In this document: piece by piece, positions 56,199 through 61,501 of the stretch
How the letters are laid out: every line of letters begins with the position of its first letter
Position numbering within the stretch: the stretch's first letter is position 1
Virus record (IMG/VR): IMGVR_UViG_3300033072_000232
Location: 17,777-81,776 of that record
DNA length: 64,000 bases
Reading direction: 5' to 3' (one strand)
Source: a virus
Lineage: Duplodnaviria > Caudoviricetes
The notes under the pieces: model-generated
What the model was told of the DNA's origin: nothing
Database searches by the model: none
The model's input: the letters and a program-made list of their open reading frames with translations, nothing else
Translations under genes and position numbers: made by a program

Positions 56199-57513
56199 AT
56201 GGGTGATGATGACGGTAAAGGTATTGGTGTGATTGCAGTTATATTTCTTGTACTTCTTATACTTATAGTCGCAGTCTCCATTGGCGCAAGTATTGAAAAC
56301 TTCCGATTGTACAAAAGTTGTATGGTAGAAATGCAGGATAAACCTCACAAAGAAGCTATTAGTATCTGCAAAGAAAGAACCAAGGGGTAACGCATGAAAG
56401 TATATATTGTAATTCGTAATGAGTTTTGTATACATGAATATGATAATTACTTTAATGAAGCAGTTTACCTCGATGAAAATAAAGCACAAGAATTTTGTGA
56501 CTTTAGTAATAAGAACATGGGCAATGGTAGTAAATACTCAGGTATTAGTTTTTATGTTGAAGTATATGAAACAAAGGAGTAAGTATATGCATATAGAATA
56601 CGCTGAAGATAAAGAACTGATTGAACTTGCTGCTAAGGCTGCTGGACTCCCTGAGCGTGGATGGATGGGGCCAGCGTTTATGTATGTGAAAGATAATCAG
56701 TTTACTGATTGGAACCCATTGAAAGACGATGGTGATGCATTTCGACTTGCTGTGAAGTTGAGTCTTACAATTATTCAAGACAAAAATGATAAGCTGTGTG
56801 CTGTTCATTGGACTGATGTGCAAGGTTGTAGGTCAGCTTACAAAGAAGATCCCTGCGCAGCTACACGCAAAGCAATTACTCGTGCAGCAGCGGAAATCGG
56901 AAGGAATATGAAATGAACATGGAAGATTTGTACCTAAGCACAAATTCAGCAATCAAACCAAAGTCAATCTTTGTATTATTCCGCAGAGAAGATTGGCTGA
57001 CTGACGAATGGATTGATTACCCTGTTCTTGCTTGTTTTGATTTCGATGAAGTAAAACGTCAGCAAGCAATTAAACTTGCTTATTCCGAAGCAAATAAAAC
57101 TAACTACTACATTGAAGAAGTAGAATACAAGTAATGAAAGCAAACGATACAATCGAGCGTCTAACCAGAGGTATTATCGGTATGATAAATACCAGAGCTA
57201 ATGTAATTGCTTTCACAGAAACTATTAAACGTCATAAACTTAAATACAATAAGCAGTCTGCTTTATACAACCAAGCTGTCTATGTAGTTACTTTGGATAG
57301 GCTAATGGATACATACGAAAAGGAATCTTCTAAATGAAAATCTCAGAATTAATTAAAGAACTTCAAGATCAATTAGATGAATTTGGAGATTCCGATACGT
57401 ATTGTACGGATACATATGGTTTTATTTCTCCTATTACATTAGTTTACTATAGTGTTATCAGAGAAGATGAACAAGGAAATCCTTTGCAATTAGGTGTTGT
57501 GGTTGAAGGTTAA
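56199..57513 (+). CDS. cluster of six small hypothetical proteins
   Basis: 56199-56390, 56394-56582, 56587-56916, 56913-57134, 57134-57337, unlisted 57334-57513. Confidence 0.5.
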
Positions 57514-57514
57514 T

Positions 57515-57931
57515 ATGAAACAAAAGCATATCAAAGCATACATGGAGTGCGCTGAAGCATTTGCAAAGTGCAGCAATGCTACTAGACTAAAAGTAGGCTC
57601 TGTTATTGTCAAAGATAACAGGATTATTTCTTGCGGTTATAATGCACATGCAGAACACATCAATGCGCCCTGCGAGCTTCCAGACGGTACAACTGACCCT
57701 AGACTAAGGCACAGTGAAAAAAACGCTCTTATGGGCCTTGTACGTAGCAATCAAAATGCTGTAGGCGCTGTGTTGTTTTGTAATTATTCGTGTTGTCTTG
57801 CCTGTGCTATTGACATAGTTGATGCTGGAATTAAAGAATTTATTTATAAAAACGATTACAGGGATTCATCTGGAATTCAATATTTAATTAAAAACAACAT
57901 AGAGGTTAGAAAATGGCAAGACCAAGACTAA
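57515..57931 (+). CDS. dCMP deaminase
   Basis: KVGSVIV..GYN, HSEKNA, SCCLAC motifs; start ATG 57515. Confidence 0.85.
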   Translation: MKQKHIKAYMECAEAFAKCSNATRLKVGSVIVKDNRIISCGYNAHAEHINAPCELPDGTTDPRLRHSEKNALMGLVRSNQNAVGAVLFCNYSCCLACAIDIVDAGIKEFIYKNDYRDSSGIQYLIKNNIEVRKWQDQD

Positions 57932-58626
57932 ACGATATTATCGGAAATAAGTACAATTATTTACTAGTAACAGGCAGGAGTACCTCCAACAATAGAAAGT
58001 TCGTTTGTGTTTGTGACTGTGGTAAAATTACAGAAACAACAAAACAACGACTTATTTCTGGAAGAACAAAGTCTTGTGGTTGTAAAAAATCTTTACTTTG
58101 CTCAGAAGCTAACAAGTTACATGGTGCATATATTGACGGTAAAAATAGCCCAACATATCAAAGTTACATAGCGATGTTACATAGATGCCATAACCCAGAG
58201 AGGGCGCATTATGATTCATATGGTGGTGCGGGTATTGCAGTAGAAGAGAGCAGTTGGTTACAGCCATCCCCTTATGGATACCTATCTTTTCTGGAAGATA
58301 TGGGAGAACGACCTCAAGGTACTTCAATTGATAGAATAAATGGAAAGTCGGGGTATTCTAAAGAAAATTGTCGTTGGGCATCTCGTAGATTGCAATCGGT
58401 AAACACAGACCATAAGAAAACTAGTAAAAACACATCAAAATATAGAGGCGTATCCGTTAGACCTAGTAATGGAAAGTATATGGCAAGAATCGGTAATGGT
58501 ATAGGTGGTTATGAGTATCTGGGGAATTATTTTACAGAATTTGAAGCAGCGTTTGCTTATAATACTAGAGCATTTGAGTTACACGGGGATGATGCAAAAT
58601 TAAATTTAATATTTTGTGCGCTATAG
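57913..58626 (+). mobile_element. HNH/AP2 homing endonuclease
   Basis: CVCDCG, KSCGC, DMGERP..SIDRING..YSKENCRWA, YRGV..AP2. Confidence 0.85.
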
Positions 58627-58733
58627 ATATTGTTGATGCAGGTATTTCTGCTGTATACTACAGACATCAATACAGATGTGATTCAGGTGTTAAATACCTG
58701 ATGGAACGTGGTATACTTGTTAAACAAATTTAA
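58617..58733 (+). pseudogene. orphaned original C-terminus of dCMP deaminase
   Basis: CAIDIVDAGISAVYYRHQYRCDSGVKYLMERGILVKQI* duplicates the end of 57515-57931. Confidence 0.85.
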
Positions 58734-58741
58734 GGAATAAT

Positions 58742-59146
58742 ATGAAACCTACTTTATATCTTATCCGTGGTGTTCCCGGTAGTGGTAAGTCTACATTTGC
58801 ACAAGAACTTGAAGATGCTTGTGTTGTAAGCTATGTCCTTGAAGCTGACAATTACTTTATTAATCAGAGCACAGGTGAGTATAATTTTGATGCATCTAAG
58901 CTTAAACAAGCTCATGAATGGTGCCAGCTTTCTGCTATCCGATCACTTAACAATCAAAACTCAGTAGCTGTATCTAACACCAGTACAACAGAAAAAGAAG
59001 TAGAGACATATCGTAAAATCGCTGAAGAATGTAACGCTAATTTTGTTAGTTTGATTGTAGAGAACAGACATAGTGGTGTTAATATCCATAACGTACCTGA
59101 AGATAAGATTCAGCAGATGAAGCAACGGTTTAGCATCAAACTTTAA
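58742..59146 (+). CDS. P-loop kinase (polynucleotide kinase-like AAA_33)
   Basis: RGVPGSGKST, EAD.YF, AH.WC, VSNT motifs. Confidence 0.8.
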   Translation: MKPTLYLIRGVPGSGKSTFAQELEDACVVSYVLEADNYFINQSTGEYNFDASKLKQAHEWCQLSAIRSLNNQNSVAVSNTSTTEKEVETYRKIAEECNANFVSLIVENRHSGVNIHNVPEDKIQQMKQRFSIKL

Positions 59147-59294
59147 GGAATAATATGACAACGATTCTATTTTCCATAGCAATGACACAATTATGGATTG
59201 CCACTAATCCTGATACCACAAATTCTTTTAGAACCGTGGCAGCATTAACGTGGTTGATCACTTCTATAGTACTTTCAATAATCTTACTTCTAAA

Positions 59295-59375
59295 ATGACT
59301 ACATACCTAACCAGCGATCTTCACCACGCTCACAATAAATTAACTATGAATATAATCAATGGTAAAGATAACTAG
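59295..59375 (+). pseudogene. orphaned original N-terminus of metallophosphoesterase
   Basis: MTTYLTSDLHHAHNK then diverges and stops; coupled by ATGA overlap to upstream 47-aa ORF (59155-59298). Confidence 0.8.
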
Positions 59376-60066
59376 AAAATTTGAATACGAATGTCAAAAC
59401 TGCGGAAAGCCTTTTCTTGCTTTCCCTTCTCAACGTAGAGGTAAGACTTTTGCATGTTCAAAAGAATGCGCAGCGGAAATAAGAAAAATCTCTAATCTTG
59501 GAGAAAAGAATCCTAATTATAAAGAAGGAATCCATTGCACTGAATCTTTCTGTGATTGTGGAAATATTAAGGATTACAGGGCTGTTAAGTGTTCAGATTG
59601 TACAAACTTACATAAGCCGAAAGAAGGTTACTCACGCGATCTTGCTGGTGTTATAAAAGCAATATCAGACTCCGATTCATATTTAAGTGCTTCTAAATTA
59701 TGTGGAGTAAGTAGGGTCAAAGTTAGGGATATTGCAAAAGATAACGGAATTGATATTTCTCATTTTGTAGTTTGCAAAAATAGACCTTCAACAGATTTAG
59801 ATATATTTAAAATCCATGATACAAGAGTGAATGCAAAAGTTAGGAAATATTTACTCAATAATGATATTATGGAGTATCAGTGTACAGAATGTGGCCTTGG
59901 TGATGAGTGGAATGGAAAACTCCTCACTCTAGAACTTGATCACATCAATGGAATTAAAGAAGACAATAGATTAGAGAATCTTAGATTCTTGTGTCCAAAT
60001 TGTCATACTCAAACATCAACTCATAGAGGAGCTAATATAAATGCAAGAAATAGAGAAAGGAGTTAG
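59359..60066 (+). mobile_element. zinc-finger HNH homing endonuclease
   Basis: CQNC..CSKEC; LELDHINGIKEDNRLENLRFLCPNCH. Confidence 0.85.
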
Positions 60067-60070
60067 TCGG

Positions 60071-60649
60071 ATGTTTTTTACATCCGACCTTTAGCTCCAC
60101 CATTCACACAATAAAATCTGTGAATATACAGAACGTAATCGCTATACAACACCAGAACAACATACTGAATGGTTGGTTGATCTTTGGAATAAGCAAGTAA
60201 AGAAAGGTGATGTTGCTTACATACTTGGAGACCTTAGCTTCTCGCATAAATATGAAGAAGTAGCAGCGTTTCTACGAAGGCTTAACGGTCAGAAATTTGT
60301 ATTGAAGGGGAATCATGATCGTAGGGAGATTCTTGATAGCTTAAAACTATCTGGTATTATTCAGAACTGGTGGGATTACAAAGAAATCAAGCTAGGTACT
60401 GATAAGACTACTACGTGCTTATTTCACTTCCCAATTGCATCTCACCATAGAAAAAGTTATGGGAGTTTCATGTTACATGGGCATGTTCATGGTACAATTC
60501 AATATCCAGGAAAATTACTCGATGTTGGACTAGACAACTCCTATAAAATCTTTGGTGAACACAAGCTATTCTCTGAACAAGATGTGCTAGAATACATGAA
60601 AACGAGGCAGGTGGCTGTGTTGGATCATCATAGTAAACGAGAGGAATAA
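60071..60649 (+). CDS. calcineurin-like metallophosphoesterase with in-frame TAG at codon 8
   Basis: AAGGAG SD, MFFTSDL*LHHSHNKI, then GDLSF, GNHD, HFP, HGHVH motifs in the same frame. Confidence 0.75.
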
Positions 60650-60650
60650 T

Positions 60651-60875
60651 ATGAAAATCTTTGTTGTAGTTGTAAACGAATGGGTAATCCACGAATACGA
60701 TGATTATGAAAACGTATGGGTAATCCACGAATACGATGAGTATGAAAACGTATCATTTTACCTTGATGAGCAAAAGGCTAATGCTGAACGAGACAGACTG
60801 AATAATTAATATGGAAGGAGTGATAGGTACTCAGGTACTTGTTATTATGTTATTGGTTATGATGTAGTTGTTTAA
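60651..60875 (+). pseudogene. disrupted paralog of 56394-56582 with 36-bp tandem duplication and premature TAA
   Basis: Duplication 60681-60716/60717-60752; TAA at 60807; similarity continues to YSG..Y. Confidence 0.7.
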
Positions 60876-61069
60876 GGATTAAAGCATGACTGAACAAATG
60901 AAAACAAACAAAGAATTGATTCAAGAAATCAAATCACTAATCACTGAGATTGAAAATATCTTAACTGAATTTCATCCTAGTTCTACAAAACGTCTAGGAT
61001 TAGTAAACCTGTTACATAGACTAGATGATGAACTAAAGTTTCTTGAATATATTGAAAGTAAAAGAACCG

Positions 61070-61501
61070 ATGGTTAAATACTTACCTAAACAAAAACAAA
61101 TAAACTTTCCAAAGGTTACCCCTGATGAACTAGCAGCTAAGATGCATAGTAAACTCAACGGGGATTATGCTTTGTATGAGTTGAGAGATATGCTCGATGT
61201 ACTTGGGGAATCAATCAAAGAGCTACTGCTAGATGGTAAGACAGTACCTATCAAGAAACTAGGTACGTTTACTTTACATTATAATAAAGCTAGGGAATAC
61301 GCTGATGTAACTAAACAAGCTTGGTATCAGTCGTATGGCACGATCAGCCCTAAATTCCGTTATACTGTTGATACTAGGAAGGAAATCTCTAAGGTAATCA
61401 AGAAGCTACTGATTGAAACAATGCAACAACCTGCTGATGTGTATCTGCGCGATTTTACTAAAGATGATTTGCTATATAAGGAGAAAGAAACGTATGATTG
61501 A
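61070..61501 (+). CDS. HU/IHF-like DNA-binding protein
   Basis: LLDGKTVPIKKLGTFTL..PKF pattern. Confidence 0.65.
   Translation: MVKYLPKQKQINFPKVTPDELAAKMHSKLNGDYALYELRDMLDVLGESIKELLLDGKTVPIKKLGTFTLHYNKAREYADVTKQAWYQSYGTISPKFRYTVDTRKEISKVIKKLLIETMQQPADVYLRDFTKDDLLYKEKETYD

What the first reader, a model, noticed from the sequence alone, without database searches (positions are those of the whole stretch)
60057..60121. CTT-TAG-CTC: a 6-nt ribosomal stop-hop would exactly restore the phosphoesterase DLH motif
Seen: a good SD (AAGGAG) and ATG 60071 read M-F-F-T-S-D-L(CTT)-stop(TAG)-L(CTC)-H-H-S-H-N-K-I, in frame with the rest of the enzyme. The orphan N-terminus upstream (59295) reads TSDLHHAHNK, so exactly two extra codons are present. 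A tRNA-Leu(GAG) can pair with both CUU and CUC, so take-off at CUU and landing at CUC gives TSDLHHSH with the metal-binding DxH intact. Simple readthrough would give D-L-x-L-H and break it. The start codon lies in a perfect 9-bp hairpin GTCGGATGT/ACATCCGAC (60066-60088) that begins at the upstream HNH stop. Established: stop-hops such as CUU-UAG-CUA occur in E. coli reporter constructs, and T4 gene 60 bypassing is linked to a homing-endonuclease insertion. Inference: natural programmed mini-bypass or an expression throttle.
Basis: partly seen in the sequence, partly recalled or inferred. Interest (0 to 1): 0.75.

Follow-up and report, generated by a model that had tools for sequence, protein, structure and literature searches.

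The report
Ribosome stop-hop cassette in phage phosphoesterase
A phage enzyme gene carries six extra bases, including a stop codon, inside its metal-binding motif; the same interruption behind a co-varying RNA hairpin travels with a selfish nuclease gene in at least eleven diverged phages, so ribosomes most likely hop over it, a decoding trick so far shown only in synthetic constructs.

Summary
Window 60089-60097 reads CTT-TAG-CTC in frame with a calcineurin-like phosphoesterase (PE), and every ordinary homologue lacks these two codons. It is not an assembly error or a private lesion. Eleven diverged metagenomic lineages carry the same arrangement directly 3' of a homologous HNH homing-endonuclease gene. 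The take-off codon is always CTT. The stop is kept as a stop (TAG, once TAA). The landing codon is any of the four CTN. The F-T-S-D codons vary only synonymously, with compensating changes in a 9-bp hairpin. One relative (L130) has a 5-nt gap (ACC-TAGCT-CAC), and two more are inferred from called proteins. That gap puts the enzyme in another frame, so readthrough cannot serve there, but a hop can.

Best reading (about 0.7): a homing-endonuclease cassette that carries a minimal programmed stop-hop, a short counterpart of T4 gene 60 with MobA. Main rival (about 0.2): a dead gene whose lesion hitchhikes with the nuclease.

No protein evidence exists, and I found no published natural stop-hop. This scan has already noted analogous cassettes on other phage DNA.

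The parts
59295..59375 (+). Orphan 5' end of the invaded phosphoesterase allele: MTTYLTSDLHHAHNK followed by 11 unrelated codons and a stop. Its ATG overlaps the stop of the upstream ORF.
   Evidence: Equivalent orphans occur in L011 (MTRWLTSDLHIGHKRI), L013 (remnant), L035 (MTTWFTSD), and L040 and L128 (SD-ATG-AAA...).
59359..60066 (+). HNH homing-endonuclease gene (235 aa).
   Evidence: Pfam PF01844, E 1.2e-6. Homologues of 47-69% identity sit directly 5' of PE genes in other contigs. HNH tree.
60028..60043 (+). GGAG (60028-31), a 9-nt spacer, then ATG 60041-43. This is the conserved start of the leader ORF, inside the 3' end of the HNH gene in another frame.
   Evidence: An in-frame ATG 10-12 codons before F-T-S-D, with a purine-rich SD 5-9 nt upstream, is present in 9 of the 10 six-base lineages first compared. 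L131 and L130 also have an upstream in-frame ATG. L040 instead starts inside the hairpin.
60056..60062 (+). Internal Shine-Dalgarno-like AAAGGAG, 3 nt 5' of the hairpin.
   Evidence: AAGGAG or AAGGA is kept in all lineages (alignment A2). It is predicted to pair with the stop and landing codons.
60059..60098 (+). Extended RNA hairpin. Lower stem 60059-65 with 60092-98; upper stem 60066-74 with 60080-88; loop 60075-79; CUU 60089-91 bulged.
   Evidence: MFE -23.3 kcal/mol, z -6.7. Upper stem: 94% of cells paired, one pair shows four Watson-Crick types and another changes GC to AU. Lower stem: 77% paired against 33-44% for slid controls.
60071..60073 (+). Not conserved.
   Evidence: The window and L030 have ATG here; other lineages have AAG, ACG or ACA. 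L040 has an analogous ATG in its hairpin.
60077..60088 (+). F-T-S-D codons, cassette-borne replacement for the first part of PE motif I. T-S-D (60080-88) is also the 3' arm of the hairpin.
   Evidence: Only synonymous variation across lineages (TTT/TTC, ACN in all four forms, TCC/TCT, GAC/GAT), compensated in the 5' arm.
60089..60091 (+). Take-off codon CTT (Leu).
   Evidence: Invariant in all 11 six-base lineages.
60092..60094 (+). In-frame stop TAG, followed by C.
   Evidence: TAG in ten lineages, TAA in L038/L039.
60095..60097 (+). Landing codon CTC (Leu), the L of the D-L-H motif.
   Evidence: CTC, CTA, CTT and CTG all occur across lineages.
60095..60649 (+). Body of the calcineurin-like metallophosphoesterase (184 codons plus TAA).
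   Evidence: All family-invariant residues are kept. Fifteen of 20 family members hit PF12850. The family profile hits PDB 1xm7.

Best explanation
The region is a mobile homing-endonuclease cassette that has invaded the 5' end of a phage metallophosphoesterase gene. The cassette has four parts. First, the HNH gene. Second, a replacement translation start (SD plus ATG at 60041; in this phage also ATG 60071). Third, a replacement N-terminus ending in F-T-S-D-L. Fourth, a 6-nt untranslated gap that begins with a stop codon.

Inferred mechanism: the ribosome reaches CUU in the P site with UAG-C, a weak termination context, in the A site. Peptidyl-tRNA-Leu then unpairs from CUU and the mRNA moves 6 nt. 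The tRNA re-pairs with the CUN codon and decoding resumes at CAC. This gives ...FTSD-L-HH... with an intact D-x-H metal site.

The co-varying hairpin just 5' of the take-off codon probably drives or biases the forward movement as it refolds behind the ribosome. The SD-like element next to it may contribute as well. This follows what has been proposed for the 5' stem-loops of T4 gene 60.

The gap probably exists because it splits the endonuclease's target in the most conserved part of the gene. That would make cassette-bearing DNA immune to cutting, while the hop keeps the enzyme expressed, perhaps at a low level.

Shown here: the anatomy, its conservation, covariation, coding constraint, mobility, and the 5-nt variant. 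Inferred: the hop itself, its efficiency, the roles of the hairpin and SD-like element, and the immunity function.
For: (1) Recurrence. The same CTT-stop-CTN, in frame with PE and 3' of a homologous HNH gene (47-69% aa identity), occurs in the window, L030, L031, L033, L038/39, L040, L014/42/43, L131, L010/11/13, L034/36/37 and L035. By contrast, 0 of about 75 PE genes sampled from IMG/VR and 0 of 19 close homologues have any insert.

(2) The stop is conserved as a stop: TAG, but TAA in L038. Take-off CTT is invariant while the landing codon uses all four CTN.

(3) Coding constraint inside the cassette. F-T-S-D varies only at synonymous positions, and the stem changes are compensated in the 5' arm, which itself changes amino acids. 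All three variable positions of the 3' arm are wobble positions (my estimate: 1 in 84 by chance). An SD, an ATG and an open leader frame are kept in every lineage, including L130, where the 5' arm sits in a different codon phase.

(4) The first 35 codons after the stop keep the family's invariant residues (H2, H5, T12, R14, H23, W26, N32, V35). There is no start codon between the stop and them.

(5) Frame-changing variant. L130 reads FTSD-ACC-TAGCT-CAC, with an intact 231-aa PE in another frame. The hop product is collinear with stop-less relatives. Two further diverged called proteins, P0293 and P0344, begin with the out-of-frame reading of FTSDT or FTADT. Both have a Thr codon just before CAC, which would be a landing codon matching a Thr take-off.

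(6) Homing-endonuclease life cycle with the gap retained. The HNH gene is deleted in L010 and truncated in L013, while the leader, stop and intact PE remain (dN/dS 0.10 between them). A LAGLIDADG gene replaces HNH in L035.

(7) The HNH tree puts the stop-linked genes in one deep group.

(8) Precedents. Synthetic stop-hops use matched codons flanking a stop. T4 gene 60 with MobA is a mobile cassette whose bypass sequence protects against the nuclease (PMC5009743; 10.1101/2022.08.31.505936; 10.1101/2024.12.09.627546).
Against: There is no protein, ribosome-profiling or RNA evidence.

Synthetic stop-hops are inefficient: about 1% is my recollection of Weiss 1987, which I did not check here.

Stop-bearing PEs are scattered among stop-less ones in the PE tree. 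The PE bodies may therefore be recently invaded alleles, so their intactness and low dN/dS are weak evidence that they function with the stop.

In two lineages the PE has decayed (L034 group, L035).

The landing codon is not always a wobble match for a tRNA-Leu(GAG). L130's landing triplet GCU needs two G-U pairs.

The 5-nt DNA was seen in only one contig. The other two cases are inferred from proteins.

The hairpin lies 5' of the take-off codon and must be unwound while the ribosome sits on CUU, so its role is conjecture. Similar hairpins followed by T-runs are ordinary terminators elsewhere (L126, L127).
Confidence: 0.7

Rival explanations
1. The gene is dead. The cassette's 3' end (hairpin plus CTTTAG) serves the endonuclease, for example as a weak terminator, an mRNA stabiliser or a cleavage-immunity insert. 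Each invaded phosphoesterase allele is simply inactivated and later decays. The stop spreads only because it hitchhikes with the homing drive.
For: Stop-bearing PEs are scattered in the PE tree next to stop-less alleles, which suggests recent invasions. Orphan N-termini in the window, L011, L035, L040 and L128 are footprints of invasion. The PE is internally deleted in L034/36/37 and broken in L035. Hairpins of this type followed by T-runs act as terminators elsewhere.
Against: It does not explain why F-T-S-D is kept at the amino-acid level with only synonymous, compensated changes. It does not explain why an SD, ATG and open leader frame are kept through deep HNH divergence, nor why the stop stays a stop. 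It does not explain why take-off and landing codons are cognate in both the 6-nt (Leu/Leu) and the 5-nt (Thr/Thr) versions. The hairpin is not scored as a terminator. The PE stays intact where the HNH gene has already been deleted (L010, L013).
Confidence: 0.2
2. Stop-codon readthrough. A near-cognate or suppressor tRNA inserts a residue at UAG, giving D-L-X-L-H, and the enzyme tolerates two extra residues.
For: The 6-nt gap keeps the frame. One gene caller read L010 with TAG=Q.
Against: TAA replaces TAG in L038. The phage encodes no suppressor tRNA, only tRNA-Met and tRNA-Tyr. There is no sign of TAG reassignment, and TAG ends HNH and other ORFs. No natural family member has D-x-x-x-H. Readthrough gives no reason for an invariant CTT or for Leu on both sides. 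In L130 the 5-nt gap makes readthrough useless.
Confidence: 0.05
3. RNA splicing. The HNH gene lies in a self-splicing intron, and the orphan N-terminus (ending ...AGC GAT) is exon 1, joined to CTC CAC...
For: In the window and L035, joining the orphan after its D codon to the codon after the stop would give a perfect N-terminus. The insert ends in G.
Against: No Rfam intron match at E up to 1. Only about 40 nt 5' and 30 nt 3' of the HNH ORF are available for a ribozyme core. L030, L031, L033, L038, L042 and L131 have no full upstream exon. The duplicated segment is similar at the protein level, with AGC versus TCC for Ser, so it descends from coding sequence.
Confidence: 0.02
4. Assembly or sequencing artefact, or a private lesion of this contig.
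For: The window is a metagenome-assembled contig, and raw reads could not be inspected.
Against: The same element occurs in independent assemblies from JGI, ENA, NCBI and Logan samples.
Confidence: 0.01

Closest known systems
Phage T4 gene 60 50-nt translational bypass within the MobA (HNH) homing-endonuclease element (Huang 1988 and Bonocora 2011, as cited in 10.1101/2022.08.31.505936)
   Same: An HNH homing endonuclease and an untranslated gap form one mobile cassette inserted in a conserved metal-binding region. A stop codon directly follows the take-off codon, and take-off and landing codons match. The element carries a homologous replacement for displaced gene sequence. The endonuclease is often degraded, lost or swapped for another family while the gap persists (here). 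mRNA pairing 5' of the take-off site is proposed as a forward driver.
   Different: The gap is 6 nt (5 nt in L130), not 50. The codons are Leu CUU to CUN, not Gly GGA to GGA. The leader is only 8-24 codons long, so there is no room for the 46-residue nascent-peptide signal. The hairpin lies 5' of the take-off codon rather than starting at it. The target gene, element sequence and element family are unrelated. The host gene is not split into two subunits; instead its N-terminus is replaced.
Synthetic 'stop-hops' in E. coli reporters (Weiss, Dunn, Atkins and Gesteland 1987, as cited in PMC5009743)
   Same: Matched codons flank a stop, so 9 nt specify one amino acid. The case I recall, CUU-UAG-CUA, is almost this sequence.
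   Different: Those were artificial, low-efficiency and had no stimulators. The 2016 review states that no natural in-frame stop-hop is known. Here the site is natural, conserved and accompanied by a co-varying hairpin and an SD-like element.
prfB (RF2) programmed +1 frameshift site, SD-like - 3 nt - CUU UGA C (own knowledge)
   Same: CUU in the P site, a stop followed by C in the A site, and an SD-like element upstream. If the hairpin is looped out, the SD-like element is 3 nt from CUU.
   Different: The +1 frame here does not encode the enzyme and stops after 10-36 codons in the three lineages I read in that frame. The productive event is +6 (or +5). The stop is UAG or UAA, not UGA.
Bypassing elements ('byps') in Magnusiomyces capitatus mitochondria (Lang 2014, as cited in PMC5009743)
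   Same: Short mobile inserts in protein-coding genes are skipped by the ribosome between matching codons.
   Different: That system is mitochondrial. The inserts are tens of nucleotides long, number in the dozens per genome, are not tied to a homing-endonuclease gene, and depend on an unused A-site codon rather than a stop.

Membership tests
Programmed translational bypassing / hopping | Take-off and landing codons read by the same tRNA flank an untranslated gap | tested here: met
   CTT ... CTN in 11 lineages. The 5-nt form has a Thr take-off with a Thr codon before CAC in P0293 and P0344, and GCU in L130.
Programmed translational bypassing / hopping | A slow-to-decode A-site codon (stop) immediately 3' of the take-off codon | tested here: met
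   TAG or TAA, always followed by C.
Programmed translational bypassing / hopping | Removing the gap restores collinearity with uninterrupted homologues, including where the gap changes frame | tested here: met
   6 nt; 5 nt.
Programmed translational bypassing / hopping | Conserved stimulatory signals in the mRNA | tested here: inconclusive
   The hairpin and SD-like element are conserved and the hairpin co-varies. Whether they stimulate hopping cannot be tested here.
Programmed translational bypassing / hopping | A single polypeptide spanning the gap is made | not testable with these tools
T4 gene 60 / MobA element (homology) | Insertion in topoisomerase II large subunit; 50-nt gap; GGA-UAG take-off hairpin; conserved nascent peptide | tested here: not met
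   Different target gene, gap length, codons and leader. This is an analogue, not a member.
Free-standing HNH homing endonuclease | HNH catalytic motif; patchy, mobile distribution next to a conserved target gene, with flanking duplicated target sequence | tested here: met
   PF01844. HNH and PE trees are discordant. Orphans and decayed copies occur. Cleavage activity was not tested.
Calcineurin-like metallophosphoesterase (Metallophos_2) | Motifs D-x-H, G-D, G-N-H-[DEC], H, G-H-x-H in order | tested here: met
   Alignment A1 invariants; PF12850 in 15 of 20 members; PDB 1xm7. The window's own 184-aa body alone gives no Pfam hit at E up to 0.01, and its D-x-H is complete only after the hop.
Stop-codon readthrough | Downstream ORF in the same frame in all members; a residue is inserted at the stop | tested here: not met
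   In L130 the PE is in another frame. The stop switches between TAG and TAA. No suppressor tRNA is present.
Group I intron with a homing-endonuclease ORF | Ribozyme core and an upstream exon | tested here: not met
   No Rfam hit. Most lineages have no full upstream exon.

The most novel reading that the evidence does not exclude
This is a natural, conserved, programmed short-range ribosome hop: 9 nt read as one amino acid, with a 5-nt frame-changing sibling. It is carried by a family of homing-endonuclease cassettes that use the untranslated gap to split their own target site while keeping the invaded enzyme alive. An RNA hairpin refolding behind the ribosome would drive it. That would be an independent invention of the T4 gene 60 / MobA strategy, without the long nascent-peptide signal.
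Probability: 0.65. Interest if true: 0.9.

Novelty: new variant of a known kind. Interest (0 to 1): 0.85.

Why it matters
Translational bypassing has rested on essentially one well-studied natural case, T4 gene 60, plus yeast mitochondrial inserts. Short 'stop-hops' were seen in 1987 only in reporters. The 2016 recoding review says no natural occurrence is known, although some apparent readthrough might be hopping.

A conserved family with natural variants would give a minimal system for finding what makes a ribosome take off and land. The variants already at hand include TAG versus TAA, four landing codons, 5-nt versus 6-nt gaps, and different stems and loops.

It would also show that selfish nucleases repeatedly solve the problem of inserting into an essential motif by recoding translation. 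A practical consequence follows: gene callers truncate or mis-frame these genes. Here they called 141-175-aa or out-of-frame N-termini.

Tried and rejected
Group I or II intron: Rfam scan of 56500-61500 at E up to 1 found none.

TAG reassignment or suppressor tRNA: rejected. ARAGORN finds only tRNA-Met and tRNA-Tyr in the whole 81.8-kb genome. Reading TAG as sense adds less open frame than reading TGA or TAA as sense.

Productive +1 frameshift at CUU-U: rejected. The +1 frame is not PE and closes soon.

Internal initiation after the stop: rejected. There is no ATG, GTG or TTG before the conserved H-x-x-H, and the metal-binding D would be lost.

Intrinsic terminator at the hairpin: not called.

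Close relatives among isolated phages: none by megablast or blastn. The nearest isolates are Curvibacter phage P26059A and Limnohabitans phage DC31, with normal N-termini. Pseudomonas phages Bitten and 16Q have a related HNH gene directly 5' of an uninterrupted PE.

Pattern scans returned some chance or unrelated hits: L012; L126 and L127, which are terminator hairpins; and L132.

dN/dS of PE bodies was computed, but I do not lean on it, because the PE tree shows the cassette moves between alleles.

Their 5-nt gaps are inferred from protein N-termini only.

Full report
**What is in the window**

The window is the last 64 kb of an 81.8-kb, nearly complete uncultured phage contig. Around 57-61 kb it encodes nucleotide-metabolism genes: a dCMP deaminase, an AAA_33 kinase-like protein and a calcineurin-like phosphoesterase (PE).

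The finding is accurate to the base.
- The PE frame reads ATG 60071, TTT TTT ACA TCC GAC, CTT (60089-91), TAG (60092-94), CTC (60095-97). It then runs open for 183 more codons to TAA 60647-49.
- The HNH ORF (59359-60066, PF01844) ends in TAG 60064-66.
- A 9-bp stem joins 60066-74 to 60080-88.
- An orphan start, MTTYLTSDLHHAHNK, lies at 59295.

All 19 close homologues and about 75 PE genes drawn from IMG/VR read F-T-S-D-x-H without the two extra codons.

**It is neither an error nor a private lesion**

One homologue, P0013, could be matched to its contig only "with TAG=Q". Its DNA (L010) carries almost the same 45 nt, including CTT-TAG-CTG, although its PE is only 58% identical.

A scan for the hairpin, a scan for the stop region, and look-ups of HNH homologues then gave eleven lineages with a 6-nt gap:
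- Window (CTC landing codon)
- L030 (CTC)
- L033 (CTT)
- L031 (CTA)
- L010/L011/L013 (CTG)
- L014/L042/L043 (CTC)
- L038/L039 (TAA stop, CTT)
- L040 (CTA, Asp codon GAT)
- L131 (CTC)
- L034/36/37 (CTC; PE internally deleted)
- L035 (CTT; PE broken)

Their HNH proteins are 47-69% identical to the window's. Their PE bodies are 40-66% identical to each other, with synonymous sites saturated.

**What is conserved, and how**

The take-off codon is CTT in every lineage, whereas the landing codon uses all four CTN codons. The stop is always a stop, but not always the same one: TAG, and TAA in L038. It is always followed by C.

The F-T-S-D codons change only synonymously (TTT/TTC; ACA, ACT, ACG, ACC; TCC/TCT; GAC/GAT). 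Each change in the T-S-D stem arm is matched in the 5' arm. One pair shows four Watson-Crick types and another goes from GC to AU. 94% of cells are paired, against 29-40% for slid controls, and 0 of 500 shuffles reach the observed covariation score.

The 5' arm pays for this with amino-acid changes (S-R-M, C-R-K, C-R-T, S-Q-R). The 3' arm is therefore constrained as protein and the 5' arm as its RNA partner.

RNAfold extends the helix. The SD-like GGAGUUA pairs with UAGCUCC, leaving CUU as a 3-nt bulge. Across lineages this lower stem is 77% paired, with weaker covariation.

ATG 60071 is not conserved (AAG, ACG or ACA elsewhere). Nine of the ten six-base lineages first compared have an in-frame ATG 10-12 codons upstream, with a GGAG-like SD. 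In the window this is ATG 60041, with GGAG at 60028-31. L040 instead starts inside the hairpin.

The 35 codons after the stop keep the family's invariant residues, and no start codon precedes them. Translation must therefore enter from the leader.

**A mobile cassette**

In the HNH tree, the stop-linked genes form one deep group rooted by Pseudomonas-phage HNH genes that sit next to uninterrupted PEs. Stop-less L032 lies inside the group, and L041 has moved to another context. L128, with an HNH 56% identical, is also stop-less but was not in the tree.

In the PE tree, the stop-bearing genes are scattered, each next to stop-less alleles. The HNH gene, leader, hairpin and gap therefore move as a unit between PE alleles.

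Footprints of this movement are visible:
- Orphan PE 5' ends upstream of the HNH gene in the window, L011, L013, L035, L040 and L128.
- HNH deleted (L010) or truncated (L013, L034) while the leader and gap remain.
- A LAGLIDADG gene in place of HNH in L035.

The MobA/gene 60 element shows the same pattern.

Because of this mobility, intact PE bodies and low dN/dS do not by themselves show function in the interrupted state. I say so plainly. The argument rests on constraints inside the cassette.

**A frame-changing sibling**

L130 has an HNH 47% identical, the same arms (GTCGGAAG / CTTCCGAC) and a larger loop. It reads F-T-S-D, ACC, TAGCT, CAC. The intact 231-aa PE is in another frame. Skipping 5 nt gives FTSDTHFGHANII..., collinear with phage Bitten and with MT837177.1.

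Two further diverged called proteins begin with the out-of-frame reading of that leader and have Thr just before the H: P0293 begins LVYFRHLT and P0344 begins MVYCGYLT. This implies ACC-TAA-CT-CAC, that is, a hop from one Thr codon to another that overlaps the stop. Their DNA could not be fetched, and L130 is a single contig, so this evidence is strong but not final. Readthrough cannot serve these genes.

**Mechanism**

Shown: the anatomy described above.

Inferred:
- With CUU in the P site and a weakly terminating UAG-C in the A site, peptidyl-tRNA-Leu unpairs. The mRNA slips 6 nt, the tRNA re-pairs at CUN, and decoding resumes at CAC.
- While the ribosome sits on CUU, the 3' arm of the hairpin is inside it and the 5' arm is outside. 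Each base of forward movement lets another pair form. This is the 'exiting-mRNA driver' proposed for gene 60.
- If the hairpin is looped out, the SD-like element is 3 nt from CUU before the hop and about 9 nt from the landing codon after it. This recalls prfB and the landing-site SD of gene 60 (own knowledge). That is speculation.
- The gap probably protects cassette DNA from the nuclease, as in T4. This was not tested.

**Rivals**

- Dead gene hitchhiking with the homing drive, about 0.2. It fits the mobility and the two decayed PEs. It does not fit the coding constraint on F-T-S-D, the kept start, the stop staying a stop, or the cognate codon pairs in both gap types.
- Readthrough, about 0.05.
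- Intron, about 0.02. No ribozyme was found, and most lineages have no upstream exon.
- Artefact, about 0.01.

**Novelty**

The recoding review of 2016 states that in-frame stop-hopping was shown with synthetic constructs and that "no occurences are known" in nature. My searches found no later report.

This scan's own earlier notes describe analogous 5- to 11-nt gaps in phage phosphoesterase and other genes on other genomes. I treated these as leads. They prompted the search for a non-3n gap, which L130 answered. The kind (programmed bypassing tied to a homing endonuclease) is known. This short, hairpin-preceded, nascent-peptide-free form is a new variant.

Noticed in passing
window 57494-58733: The dCMP deaminase (57494-57931) is followed by a 237-aa ORF with no Pfam hit (57913-58626). 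After that comes an orphan copy of the deaminase C-terminus (58614-58733, CAIDIVDAGI...). This mirrors the PE case: a probable second homing cassette that brought a replacement C-terminus.
   Followed up: partly
L131:1025-2069: The stop-bearing PE of L131 also has a long insert straight after the G-H of its last metal motif. The insert starts with Cys and contains a LAGLIDADG-like LVADGS, so it is probably an intein. That would mean two different mobile-element solutions in one small gene.
   Followed up: no
L035 (reverse strand), about 860 to 60 nt 5' of the stop: A two-motif LAGLIDADG endonuclease ORF occupies the place of the HNH gene. It lies between an orphan MTTWFTSD and the same leader, hairpin and stop. 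This looks like an endonuclease swap at a conserved landing pad.
   Followed up: partly
L040:1420-1500 and L128:1120-1200: One or two successive orphan PE 5' ends (SD-ATG-AAA...) lie upstream of the HNH gene. They look like footprints of repeated invasions at slightly different points of the PE 5' end.
   Followed up: partly
L010:100-210: The 3' end of the AAA_33 gene (NRFSVKL-stop) is followed by a diverged duplicate (NRFEVNVL). The same duplicate is seen in L011 and L013. This is another duplicated gene end next to the cassette.
   Followed up: no
proteins P0309, P0313, P0318, P0335, P0355, P0359, P0360, P0369: Eight of the 120 best homologues of the L130 PE are called from an internal Met about 35 residues in. 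They lack the D-x-H region and may hide further gaps or insertions in the 5' end.
   Followed up: no
window 60092-60200, +1 frame: After CUU-U the +1 frame stays open for 36 codons in the window and for a similar length in L031. A prfB-like +1 slip would compete with the hop and give a short alternative product.
   Followed up: no
window 60651-60809: The small ORF just 3' of the PE contains a direct repeat (NEWVIHEYDDYENV / WVIHEYDEYENV).
   Followed up: no
whole window: TAG is a rare stop in this phage: 4 of 65 ORFs of 120 aa or more, against 40 TAA and 21 TGA.
   Followed up: partly
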